NCBI RefSeq assembly: GCF_056746865.1
Contig: NZ_CM163382.1
Length of the DNA: 64,000 bases
Direction: 5' to 3' (one strand)
Position numbers: made by a program. Within the stretch, counting starts at the first letter, position 1; every line of letters starts with the position of its first letter. This document shows, piece by piece, positions 8,901 to 11,900 of the stretch.

Positions 8901-11900
8901 GTCGAAAATGGCGTCCACCGCCACCTCTTTGCCTTCCCGCACGGGAACGCCCAACTGCTCAAACGCCGCCTCCACCTCTTTACTTAAAAAGGCGTTCGCG
9001 CCAGTTTGCTGCACCGCGCCGGGTTCAGACGCGCAGTTGTCGTCACAATTACCGCACGATGGTGCTGAGTAGTAGCTGTAATCCTGATAATTCAGCTTGT
9101 CGTAGTGCGCTTTCAACCAGTGCGGTTCTTCCATCTCCAGCCATGCGCGATAGGCGTTGAGACGAAACTCCAGCATCCACTCCGGCTCATTACGCTTCGC
9201 CGAAATTGCGCGCACCACCTCTTCGTTTATCCCCTTTGCCAGCTCATCGGTGGCTAACTGGGTGAAGAATCCTTCTTTATAATTCAGCGGGCCGCCGGTC
9301 CAGGTTTTGACATCGTCAGTTGCTTCAGTATTACGAGACATAGTACCGCCTATACCCCAAAGCTTTCGCCACAGCCACATTCATTCTGGGCTTTAGGGTT
9401 GTGAAATTTGAATATCTGATTAAGTCCTTCACGAACGAAATCGACTTCCGTGCCATCAATAAACGGCATCGCTTGCAGCGGGACAAACAGCTTCGCACCG
9501 TCGTGTTCAAACAGCAGATCGTCTTTGTCCGGCTCGCTAACACTGTCGAGCACATAGCCAAAGCCCGCGCAGCCCGTTTGCTTCACGCCTAAGCGCACGC
9601 CGACCATACCCGGCTGCTTTGCCACCAGCTCGCGTATGTGGACAGCGGCTGCGGGTGTCAGCGTTAAGCCCTGCCAGGCGAAATCCTGTGGATTAAAGGT
9701 TCCTGAATGCATGTCCATCGATTTACCTCACTTCATCGCTTTCAGCGTATAACAGCATGTTAGTGATAATGATTATCAGTTCAACCCAGCAAACGCAGGG
9801 GCTTTACCGTAAAACATGCTTTTTTCTTGCTTTTAATAAGCATAGACCCTGATGTGTGGGTTAACAGGCACGCTAAGAATTAGGTATCTCATTGTTAGAT
9901 AATGATTATTATCTAAGGAGCATTAAGGCTGTGATGAAAAAGAAAAAGTTGTATTGAAAATGACTATTTAAGAGATAGGTAAAAAAGTGCAGCGTTCAGA
10001 AATAAGAAAACCCTTAAGTCTGTGCGACACAGGCTTAAGGGTTTCTACCCCATCCGGCGCTTATCTCCGGCACTCTCAGTGGCTTAGCTCTTGAAGGGGC
10101 GATAAGAATAATCTCATAAAGCTAAGCCGTCGTTTTAACACAAACTGCGATTAGTATTATTTTTGAACAATATCAGGCGGTTAGATAAGCAGTATTAAGA
10201 AGGTTATCGAACCTGGACGGAGGTTAATCCAGGTCGATTTGGCGAAATTGCAGCATTAAGTCAGGATCAATGCACGCCCAGACGCCAGGCAAAGTAGATT
10301 TCTTCTTTTAATTCAGCAGAAGAGAGAGTAAGCAGGTCAGCAAATTCAAGTTCTAGTTGTTTCAGACGTTTGAGATATTGGGCAGGTGAAAGATTGCTCT
10401 GGTCACGGCGTAAAAATTCAATGGCCAGCTGGGTGGGATCAAGTTGAGTAGACATAGCATCCTCGCTTTTAGACAAGACCTGCACAGTATACCACCGTTT
10501 ACTGTGCAGATAATAACCAAAAGCAATATGCGTCACACTTTTCTGGTGACAACGTCACAAAATGGCGGTCGTTAATCGTGACGAACAGCACAAACGCCCT
10601 TTCTCATCGAAGATTTCAATCTGCCAGACCTGGTGACGCGAACCGAGATGCAACGGTTTGCATACGCCGCGCACCCGCCCTTCTCGTGCCGAGCGGACGT
10701 GGTTAGCATTGATTTCCAGACCAACCACCTTTTGCTCACCTTCGGTACATAAATAACCGGCAACGGAACCGATACTTTCGGCCAGTACCACGGATGCCCC
10801 TCCATGCAGCAACCCGAAAGGCTGCTTTGTCCGCGAGTCTACTGGCATTGTCGCTTCAAGGGTGTCATCACCAATATGTTCAAAGCGAATATCCAGCAAC
10901 CCCACCATGTTTCCTTCACCCATGGCATTCAGTGCTTCCAGGGTGATTTTTCGTTTCCATATCATTTAATAATCTCCAGTAAAGCCTGCACAGGATGGCG
11001 TACCCCCGTGCCTTCGACCCGTTTTACCTGGCTACGGCAGGAATATCCGGTCGCCAGACAGCGATTACGCGGCAGTCGCTGCATCGCCTGATGCCAGGAT
11101 AACTCATAGATCCCGAGCGAATTTTTATGGTTTTTCGCTTCATGTCCGTAAGTCCCTGCCATGCCGCAGCAACCCACGCTGACATTTTCCAGTTTCGCGC
11201 CAAAACGGGCAAATATCGCGGCCCATTGTGCTGGCGCGCCCGGCAAAGCGGTAACTTCGGTACAGTGACCAAAGAAATACCATGATTCACCGCTGACTGT
11301 AGCCACTGGCTGTGAGTCAAGTGCGCTTGCCAGCCATTCATTCGCCAGTAAGACGTTAAACTCGCCACGTTCCTCGCCCAGCGCCAGTTTATATTCATCG
11401 CGATAACAAAGTACCAGCGCCGGATCGACGCCCACCATTGGCATCCCCAGCTTCGCCATACGGTTGAGGAAATCCGCCGTCTTTTTCGCCGTCTTCGCAA
11501 AACGATTAAGAAAGCCTTTGATATGCTGGGCTTTGCCATTTGGCGAAAATGGCAGTAACACAGGCTGGAAACCTAATTTTTCGACCAGACGGACAAAATC
11601 CGCCACCACTTGCGCATCGTAATAGCTGGTAAAGGGGTCCTGCACCACCAACACCGTGCGCGCTTTCTGCTCTGCATTGAGAGCTTCAAGCTGTTCCAGC
11701 GTCATATTCGCCGAGCGATGCCCCACCATTTGTTGTTGCAGCGAGGGGACCGACAGCAGCGGCAAATCAACCATGCCAATATGTTTTTCCGAGAGTTTGC
11801 GCACCAGCGGCTGGTTAATGAAGAAGTTAAAGGTTTTCGGCGCGCGTGCCATCAGCGGTGCGTAGCTCTCGACCGTAGCGACAAGGTGGTCGCGCAGAGG

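What the first reader, a model, noticed from the sequence alone, without database searches (positions are those of the whole stretch)
9719..9920. Two Fur-box-like AT palindromes upstream of sufA
Besides the promoter-proximal GTGATAATGATTATCA (about 45-60 bp upstream of the sufA ATG), a second palindrome GATAATGATTATTATC lies about 180-195 bp upstream. The second may simply be the known IHF site of the suf promoter, but its resemblance to the Fur consensus is strong enough to ask whether Fur binds at two positions or whether it belongs to the adjacent rydB promoter.
Basis: partly seen in the sequence, partly recalled or inferred. Interest (0 to 1): 0.25.

Follow-up and report, generated by a model that had tools for sequence, protein, structure and literature searches.

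The report
Fur box plus Fur-like IHF-site arm
Upstream of the E. coli sufA gene, the near repeat is the well-known, deeply conserved Fur repressor site, while the far repeat is the AT-rich arm of the known IHF bending site that only in Escherichia happens to look like a Fur site; this is largely ordinary, already-described promoter anatomy.

Summary
The window is E. coli chromosome and sufA is on the minus strand. The proximal TGATAATGATTATCA (9764-9778) is a perfect 7-1-7 Fur box in the -35/-10 spacer of PsufA. It scores 21.2 bits and is conserved at the same position in 79 of 80 Enterobacteriaceae species. This is the known Fur operator.

The distal repeat is larger than reported. It is a perfect 9-4-9 inverted repeat, TTAGATAAT/ATTATCTAA (9895-9916), at -145..-166 from the transcription start. 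It scores 15.4 bits on a rebuilt Fur matrix. That is above two footprinted Fur sites, and the chance of such a score in this spacer is about 0.005, so the resemblance is real.

Three observations weigh against a dedicated second Fur operator:
- Fur-likeness is confined to Escherichia.
- The site is dimorphic within E. coli. About 60% of genomes, K-12 included, carry a 12.5-bit allele.
- It abuts the position where 67 of 74 other species carry a canonical IHF core, so it forms the AT-rich 5' arm of the IHF site that lets OxyR activate suf.

It lies about 200 bp downstream of the rydB start, so it is not the rydB promoter. Fur binding at the distal site is predicted in vitro but unproven. A regulatory role there is unlikely.

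The parts
9350..9718 (-). sufA coding sequence, first gene of sufABCDSE
   Evidence: ORF of 122 aa. Annotated as sufA in genomes 100% identical over this stretch and in K-12.
9750..9750 (-). PsufA transcription start (+1), 32 nt upstream of the ATG; -10 TAACAT at 9762..9757 and -35 TTGAAC at 9784..9779
   Evidence: Read from the sequence. The numbering is confirmed because the published mutations '-26 ATA -24' (Fur site) and '-50 C' (IscR site) fall on exactly those bases (PMC12594620).
9764..9778 (.). Proximal Fur box: perfect 7-1-7 TGATAAT-G-ATTATCA, at -28..-14 in the -35/-10 spacer. The full walker cluster runs about 9756-9786.
   Evidence: 0 mismatches. Scores 21.2 bits, flanked by 5.7- and 3.2-bit walkers at +/-6 bp. 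This equals the published cluster of 21.3 bits, 3 walkers and 31 bp at -53. Scores at least 18.3 bits at the same position in 79 of 80 species. Its mutation is the standard 'Fur site mutation' of PsufA.
9781..9806 (-). IscR type-2 activator site (AAAGCCCCTGCGTTTGCTGGGTTGAA), overlapping the -35 hexamer and adjacent to the Fur box
   Evidence: Conserved block in the 20-species alignment. The published IscR-site mutations, deletion of -56..-51 and -50C>G, map here. Fur and apo-IscR bind ORE-III mutually exclusively (review PMC8300815). The match to the type-2 consensus was made by eye from memory.
9885..9897 (-). Position of the IHF core. E. coli has TAACAATGAGATA, 2 mismatches to WATCAANNNNTTR, at -147..-135 from +1.
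   Evidence: Aligns with a core of 0-1 mismatches (e.g. AATCAATGCATTG) in 67 of 74 non-Escherichia species. IHF is required for OxyR activation by looping (reviews).
9895..9916 (.). Distal Fur-like element: perfect 9-4-9 inverted repeat TTAGATAAT-GATT-ATTATCTAA at -166..-145 from +1. The best Fur 19-mer is 9895-9913, centred at 9904.
   Evidence: Inverted repeat. Scores 15.4 bits, plus 8.6 bits at +3. The K-12 allele has G at 9905 and scores 12.5 bits. Allele frequencies are 2118 versus 3262 of 5421 genomes. At least 10 bits is reached only in Escherichia, apart from one species at the aligned position.
9947..9978 (-). OxyR-type site (CTATCTCTTAAATAGTCATTTTCAATACAACT), at -228..-197 from +1
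   Evidence: Conserved block CTAT..AAATAG.CATT..C.ATACA across genera. The OxyR site lies far upstream and needs IHF. It contains an 11.7-bit Fur-like hit centred at 9962.
10040..10112 (-). rydB small RNA gene, same strand as sufA and transcribed towards it
   Evidence: Rfam RF00118: 81.6 bits, E = 2.9e-19, at 10100..10040. The K-12 annotation 1764713-1764780 maps to 10045-10112.
10008..10044 (-). 17-bp-stem hairpin just downstream of rydB, followed on the minus strand by TTTTCTTATTT. Probably a terminator separating rydB from the suf control region.
   Evidence: Inverted repeat I1, 94% complementary. The simple terminator scan did not call it, so the role is inferred.

Best explanation
The region is the known composite control region of PsufA, read on the minus strand.

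Iron control works through the proximal 7-1-7 Fur box, which sits between the -35 and -10 hexamers. Fe-Fur bound there occludes RNA polymerase and excludes the adjacent activator apo-IscR.

The distal inverted repeat is not a second dedicated Fur operator and not a rydB promoter element. It is the AT-rich promoter-distal arm of the IHF site. IHF bends the DNA there so that OxyR, bound about 60 bp further upstream, can contact polymerase. The conserved flank of that IHF site (AAAT.CATTATT-WATCAA) is already slightly Fur-like. In the Escherichia lineage a few substitutions in the poorly constrained left half turned it into GATAAT..ATTATC, raising the Fur score to 11-15 bits.

Fur may bind it weakly, in vitro or at high Fur activity, but this is most likely without regulatory consequence.

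Shown here: positions, scores, conservation, polymorphism and the strand logic for rydB. Inferred: that IHF occupies this exact stretch in E. coli, and that Fur occupancy there is functionally negligible.
For: 1. Proximal site. It is a perfect 7-1-7 box at 21.2 bits at -28..-14. It scores at least 18.3 bits at the same position in 79 of 80 species. It is the only sufA cluster in Chen et al.'s table of strong clusters. It is also the site mutated to abolish Fur control.

2. Distal site and IHF. In 67 of 74 non-Escherichia species a WATCAANNNNTTR core with at most 1 mismatch starts 7 bp downstream of the point aligned with the distal centre. It is preceded by the conserved aAAt.caTTATT. Only the right half of the E. 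coli repeat (CATTATC) belongs to this conserved block. The left half varies even among Escherichia species.

3. Fur score at the aligned position in other genera. The median is 1.0 bit, against -21 bits for background positions, and only 1 of 67 species reaches 10 bits. The IHF flank is therefore inherently somewhat Fur-like but is not a Fur site.

4. Polymorphism. 60% of 5421 complete E. coli genomes, including K-12, carry a G in the spacer that lowers the score to 12.5 bits. A further E. coli allele scores 10.9 bits.

5. Geometry. The site lies at about -155, far from the polymerase footprint. The centre-to-centre distance to the proximal box is 133 bp.

6. Literature model. OxyR binds ORE-I, IHF binds ORE-II, and Fur and apo-IscR bind ORE-III (PMC8300815; PMC8593673).

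7. rydB. It is on the same strand and upstream, and no Fur walker above 1.4 bits lies near its promoter.
Against: - 15.4 bits (12.5 in K-12) exceeds the 10-bit level of the weakest proven site used as the genome-scan cut-off by Chen et al.. It also exceeds the footprinted fur and tonB sites. Fur binding is therefore predicted, not excluded.
- Chance probability in this spacer is only about 0.005 for the score and about 0.02 for the 9-bp-arm repeat. IHF has no need for an inverted repeat.
- All six Escherichia lineages sampled keep at least 10.9 bits.
- The E. coli IHF core is itself degenerate, with 2 mismatches, so the exact IHF register in E. coli is inferred from orthologues.
- I could not read the primary footprinting papers or ChIP-exo tables. 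The ORE coordinates I use (-236..-197, -156..-127, -56..-35) are from memory of Lee et al. 2004.
Confidence: 0.68

Rival explanations
1. The distal repeat is a genuine second, lower-affinity Fur operator specific to Escherichia. When iron is replete, Fur bound there competes with IHF for the same about 30 bp. This prevents the bend and so vetoes OxyR-dependent activation, adding an iron check on peroxide induction of suf.
For: - It scores 15.4 bits with a second walker 3 bp away, the pattern typical of Fur clusters.
- That score is above proven weak sites.
- It is improbable by chance in this spacer.
- At least 10.9 bits is kept in all six Escherichia lineages.
- It physically overlaps the IHF position.
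- Fur binds about 250 genomic locations anaerobically, most without known effect, so occupancy of a 15-bit site is plausible (PMC4676285).
Against: - It is absent from 66 of 67 other species at the aligned position.
- It is weakened by a common SNP in 60% of E. coli genomes.
- Its left arm evolves freely.
- Published models place Fur only at ORE-III.
- Chen et al. conclude that Fur acts mainly by overlapping promoters.
Confidence: 0.15
2. Fur does bind the distal repeat detectably, in vitro or in ChIP, but binding is regulatorily silent. It would be one of the many non-functional Fur sites created by AT-rich sequence.
For: - The score lies in the range of sites that gel-shift at 150 nM Fur.
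- Most ChIP-seq Fur sites, about 200, cause no Fur-dependent transcription change.
- The OxyR site in the same spacer also scores 11.7 bits, showing that AT-rich operator DNA easily mimics Fur boxes.
Against: No direct binding data were accessible. IHF is abundant and may keep the site occupied.
Confidence: 0.3
3. The distal repeat overlaps a secondary upstream promoter for sufA (-35 ATCACA at 9935..9930, -10 GATAAT at 9913..9908). It would then be a classical promoter-overlapping Fur operator for that promoter.
For: The consensus scan finds this 9-of-12 match on the minus strand.
Against: - The scan found 3 such matches against 1.9 expected in shuffles, so this is not significant.
- The hexamers are not conserved outside Escherichia.
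- I know of no upstream start site for sufA. The published numbering uses a single +1.
Confidence: 0.04
4. The distal repeat belongs to the rydB promoter.
For: None beyond proximity.
Against: - rydB is on the minus strand at 10100..10040 (Rfam) or 10112..10045 (K-12 annotation).
- Its promoter must lie above 10112.
- The repeat is about 200 bp downstream of the rydB start, beyond a 17-bp-stem hairpin.
- The Fur matrix finds nothing above 1.4 bits at the rydB promoter.
Confidence: 0.01

Closest known systems
Fur operator of PsufA (ORE-III region) in E. coli K-12
   Same: The proximal site is this element. It has the same sequence as K-12, lies at -28..-14, carries the bases mutated in published Fur-site mutants, and matches the published 21.3-bit score.
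   Different: Nothing. The window strain is identical to K-12 here.
IHF site of PsufA (ORE-II), which loops OxyR to the promoter; architecture like the phage lambda H' site (A-tract, spacer, WATCAANNNNTTR)
   Same: The distal repeat occupies the AT-rich 5' arm next to the core position, between the OxyR block and the promoter. Orthologues have a textbook core plus AAAT..CATTATT flank.
   Different: In Escherichia the core has 2 mismatches and the arm has become a perfect 9-4-9 inverted repeat, which IHF does not require. The exact E. coli IHF footprint was not available to me, and the H' comparison is from memory.
Secondary low-affinity Fur regions in other promoters, e.g. fhuF2 (14.6 bits) next to fhuF1 (22.3 bits) in Chen et al. 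2007
   Same: A strong promoter-proximal cluster together with a weaker site of about 15 bits in the same control region (Table 3).
   Different: fhuF2 was footprinted and lies within about 80 bp of fhuF1. The suf distal site is 133 bp away, overlaps another protein's site, has no binding data, and is not conserved.

Membership tests
Fur box (Fur operator) | Sequence match to the single-dimer 9-1-9 / 7-1-7 model at or above the weakest proven site (about 10 bits) | tested here: met
   Proximal 21.2 bits. Distal 15.4 bits (12.5 bits for the K-12 allele). The 20 training sites range from 11.3 to 27.9 bits.
Fur box (Fur operator) | Overlap with the core promoter, giving repression by occlusion | tested here: met
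   Met for the proximal site only, at -28..-14 between the -35 and -10 hexamers. Not met for the distal site, which lies at -166..-145, outside any supported promoter.
Fur box (Fur operator) | Conservation in orthologous promoters | tested here: not met
   This row is for the distal site. At least 10 bits at the aligned position is found only in Escherichia and in 1 of 67 other species, and the site is dimorphic within E. coli. For comparison, the proximal site is conserved in 79 of 80 species.
Fur box (Fur operator) | Direct Fur binding (footprint, gel shift, ChIP-exo) and loss of iron control on mutation | not testable with these tools
   For the proximal site the literature treats it as the Fur site. 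For the distal site no data were accessible. The primary papers and ChIP tables are not held.
IHF binding site | Core WATCAANNNNTTR | tested here: inconclusive
   The E. coli sequence at the aligned position, TAACAATGAGATA, has 2 mismatches. Two other 2-mismatch candidates overlap the repeat. Orthologues have 0-1 mismatches in 67 of 74 species.
IHF binding site | AT-rich element 5' of the core within the roughly 30-35 bp wrapped segment | tested here: met
   The distal repeat lies immediately 5' of the core position and overlaps it by 3 bp. Its CATTATC half belongs to the conserved aAAt.caTTATT flank.
IHF binding site | Placement between a remote activator site and the promoter, with experimental IHF dependence | tested here: met
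   It lies between the OxyR block (-228..-197) and the promoter. IHF dependence of OxyR activation is stated in reviews. The exact footprint coordinates are only from my memory of Lee et al. 2004.
rydB promoter element | Location upstream of the rydB start on the rydB strand | tested here: not met
   rydB is on the minus strand at 10112/10100..10040. The repeat is at 9895-9916, downstream of the gene and of its hairpin.

The most novel reading that the evidence does not exclude
In Escherichia, and most strongly in the roughly 40% of E. coli strains carrying the 15.4-bit allele (hits included O157:H7 and Nissle), Fe-Fur occupies a second operator that overlaps the IHF site at about -155. By excluding IHF it blocks the DNA bend that OxyR needs. 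Peroxide induction of the Suf Fe-S assembly machinery would then be gated by iron status at two separate points, and natural alleles would differ in this gating.
Probability: 0.1. Interest if true: 0.45.

Novelty: already known. Interest (0 to 1): 0.15.

Why it matters
The practical value is a clean dissection of a well-studied promoter. Iron repression of suf is explained by one deeply conserved Fur box. The second look-alike coincides with the IHF site.

If the minority reading were true, Fur-IHF competition would add a mechanistic link between iron sensing and OxyR-dependent peroxide induction of Fe-S cluster repair, and a common E. coli SNP would modulate it. That is a modest but directly testable hypothesis.

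The analysis also illustrates that AT-rich operator DNA, such as the IHF arm and the OxyR site, can score 11-15 bits on a Fur matrix. This is a caution for genome-wide Fur site prediction.

Tried and rejected
- Primary literature. Lee 2004, Lee 2008, Outten 2004, Mettert and Kiley 2014, Seo 2014 and the Mettert-Kiley review are not held. No supplements are held for the Fur ChIP-seq, information-theory or pan-regulon papers. The supplement of PMC10219339 gives only expression values for suf genes. I therefore found no site-resolved Fur or IHF binding data.
- One literature search was too loose and returned nothing useful.
- My first matrix build, seeded with the classical 19-bp consensus, converged on a register shifted +/-3 bp from Chen's coordinates. 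I discarded it for the 9-1-9 register, which reproduces the published scores.
- Upstream secondary promoter: rejected as not significant and not conserved.
- rydB promoter: rejected on strand and position.
- Cooperative looping between the two Fur-like sites: considered, but nothing supports it. The 133 bp centre-to-centre spacing equals 12.7 helical turns, so the sites are not in phase.

Full report
**Identity of the locus.** The 1.2 kb around the finding is 100% identical to several E. coli chromosomes and is present in 5421 of 5426 complete E. coli genomes. sufA is the 122-aa ORF at 9718..9350 on the minus strand, followed by sufB. rydB is found by Rfam at 10100..10040, also on the minus strand (81.6 bits). 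In K-12 the order is ydiH, rydB, sufA, all on one strand. The control region must therefore be read as the reverse complement of 9719-10040.

**Check of the observation.**
- The proximal one is a perfect 7-1-7 inverted repeat, TGATAAT-G-ATTATCA (9764-9778).
- The distal one is part of a longer, perfect 9-4-9 inverted repeat, TTAGATAAT-GATT-ATTATCTAA (9895-9916).
- The window holds five matches to TGATAATNATTATCA at 2 or fewer mismatches, against 0.22 expected. They are sufA proximal, sufA distal, two sites that correspond to the published ydhY and ydiE Fur clusters, and one more at 51280.

**Position weight matrix.** I took the coordinates of footprinted or gel-shifted Fur sites from Chen et al. 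2007 (PMC2189734, Tables 3 and 4). I fetched the K-12 DNA for them and rebuilt their 19-bp single-dimer model from 20 of their 24 sites. My scores agree with theirs with r = 0.994, each within about 1.5 bits.

Scan of the sufA-rydB spacer:

| Site | Centre | Score | Notes |
|---|---|---|---|
| Proximal | 9771 | 21.2 bits | Published 21.3 at -53; flanking walkers at +/-6 bp |
| Distal | 9904 | 15.4 bits | 8.6-bit walker 3 bp away |
| Third hit | 9962 | 11.7 bits | Inside the OxyR site |

- The distal score is sixth best in the 64-kb window. It lies below 18 of the 20 training sites but above the footprinted fur (12.2) and tonB (11.3) sites.
- Chen et al. used 10 bits, the level of the weakest proven site, as the cut-off for their genome scan.
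- The chance of at least 15.4 bits somewhere in a spacer of this length and AT content is 0.004-0.006.
- The chance of a perfect 9-bp-arm inverted repeat is about 0.02.
- The resemblance is therefore real and Fur binding in vitro is predicted. It is not just an impression.

**Promoter anatomy.** Reading the minus strand gives TTGAAC, a 16-bp spacer and TAACAT, with a start 32 nt before the ATG (window 9750). With this numbering the published Fur-site mutation '-26 ATA -24' and the IscR-site mutation '-50 C' fall on exactly those bases (PMC12594620), so the start is secure.
- The proximal box fills -28..-14, the spacer of the core promoter. It is directly downstream of the IscR type-2 site.
- The distal repeat is at -166..-145.

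**Comparative evidence.** A scan with SufA returned 80 Enterobacteriaceae species.
- The proximal box is present with 0-2 mismatches at -60..-63 from the ATG in 79 of 80 species, at 18.3 bits or more. The exception, Intestinirhabdus, has a 26.6-bit box further upstream.
- The distal Fur-like sequence reaches 10 bits at the aligned position only in the six Escherichia lineages (10.9-15.4 bits) and in one other species.
- A 20-species alignment shows what is conserved upstream. There is an OxyR-type block (-228..-197 from +1) and a block aAAt.caTTATT followed by WATCAANNNNTTR. There is also an invariant CAGGGTCTATGCTTA, then the IscR site and the core promoter.
- The IHF core has 0-1 mismatches in 67 of 74 non-Escherichia species, nearly always starting at -180 from the ATG.
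- E. coli aligns there with TAACAATGAGATA (9897..9885, 2 mismatches). The distal repeat is the 22 bp immediately 5' of it, overlapping it by 3 bp.
- Only the right half of the repeat (CATTATC) belongs to the conserved flank. The left half differs even among Escherichia species.
- At the aligned position the other genera score a median of 1.0 bit on the Fur matrix, against -21 for background positions. The IHF flank is thus intrinsically a little Fur-like, and Escherichia-specific substitutions pushed it to 11-15 bits.

**Polymorphism.**
- K-12 has G instead of A at window position 9905, in the 4-bp spacer of the repeat. This drops the score to 12.5 bits.
- Among 5421 complete genomes, 2118 have the window's 40-mer and 3262 have the K-12 40-mer.
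- The window allele is shared by E. albertii, E. whittamii and a cryptic clade, so it is probably ancestral. The majority allele is then a derived weakening.
- All published footprints and reporter work were done in K-12, which carries the weaker allele.

**Literature model.** Two reviews state the accepted model. OxyR binds far upstream (ORE-I). IHF bound at ORE-II bends the DNA so that OxyR reaches the promoter. Fur and apo-IscR bind ORE-III in a mutually exclusive way (PMC8300815; PMC8593673).
- From memory of Lee et al. 2004, the OREs are -236..-197, -156..-127 and -56..-35. This fits my sequence-derived blocks and places the right half of the distal repeat inside ORE-II.
- I could not read the primary footprints or any ChIP-exo table.

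**Interpretation.**
- Most likely (0.68): iron control is exerted at the proximal box alone, and the distal repeat is the AT-rich arm of the IHF site. Its Fur-likeness would be lineage-specific and incidental. This reading includes the possibility that Fur binds the distal repeat without effect (0.3, overlapping the main reading rather than adding to it).
- Functional second operator (0.15): Fur would compete with IHF and thereby veto OxyR activation under iron-replete conditions.
- A Fur-controlled upstream promoter (0.04) and the rydB-promoter idea (0.01) are not supported. The latter is excluded by strand and position.

**Verdict.** Novelty is low, with a small residual chance of a modestly interesting Fur-IHF antagonism that a handful of footprints and reporter fusions would settle.

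Noticed in passing
window 9837-9851 (minus-strand sense CAGGGTCTATGCTTA; core 10-mer 9837-9846), about -96..-87 from the sufA start: The 10-mer TCTATGCTTA is invariant at the same position in 77 of 81 Enterobacteriaceae sufA upstream regions. It is better conserved than the OxyR and IHF sites. It is often preceded by a CCTG..CAGGG inverted repeat. I know of no regulator assigned to it. It resembles an NsrR half-site (AAGATGCYTTT) only weakly, at 7 of 11 positions, and that comparison is from memory. NsrR is reported to repress suf.
   Followed up: partly
window 9953-9971 (centre 9962): A third Fur-like hit, ATTGAAAATGACTATTTAA at 11.7 bits, lies inside the conserved OxyR site. 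Orthologous OxyR sites in other genera also score 4-10.5 bits. This is probably mimicry by AT-rich operator DNA.
   Followed up: partly
window 9905, K-12 versus the window strain: An A/G dimorphism in the spacer of the distal repeat splits complete E. coli genomes about 39% to 60%. Hits with the window allele included O157:H7 and Nissle. K-12, O26 and O104:H4 carry the other allele.
   Followed up: yes
window 9885-9897 versus loci L007-L081 at about -180 from the ATG: The IHF core is canonical in most Enterobacteriaceae but has 2 mismatches in all Escherichia lineages. The genus seems to have remodelled this site while keeping the OxyR block.
   Followed up: partly
window 38095-38541 (strongest centre 38532, 15.5 bits): A cluster of Fur-like hits (15.5, 9.4, 9.2, 8.5, 8.1 and 7.6 bits) lies in an AT-rich stretch that I did not annotate. 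It scores as high as the sufA distal site.
   Followed up: no
window 55-73 and 36102-36126: Fur sites of 20.0 bits (centre 64) and 20.1 and 16.9 bits (centres 36111 and 36117) reproduce the published ydhY (19.9) and ydiE (20.1) clusters. They serve as internal positive controls for the matrix.
   Followed up: yes
window 10008-10044: A 17-bp-stem hairpin (94% complementary) lies directly after rydB and is followed by TTTTCTTATTT on the minus strand. It is a likely terminator, but the simple terminator scan missed it. The K-12 annotation ends rydB just before it.
   Followed up: no
locus L057 (Intestinirhabdus alba), about -151 from the matched sufA start: This is the only species without the box at about -54. 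It has instead a 26.6-bit box, AGTGATAATAATTATCATT, about 100 bp further upstream. That suggests an insertion or a different start codon.
   Followed up: no
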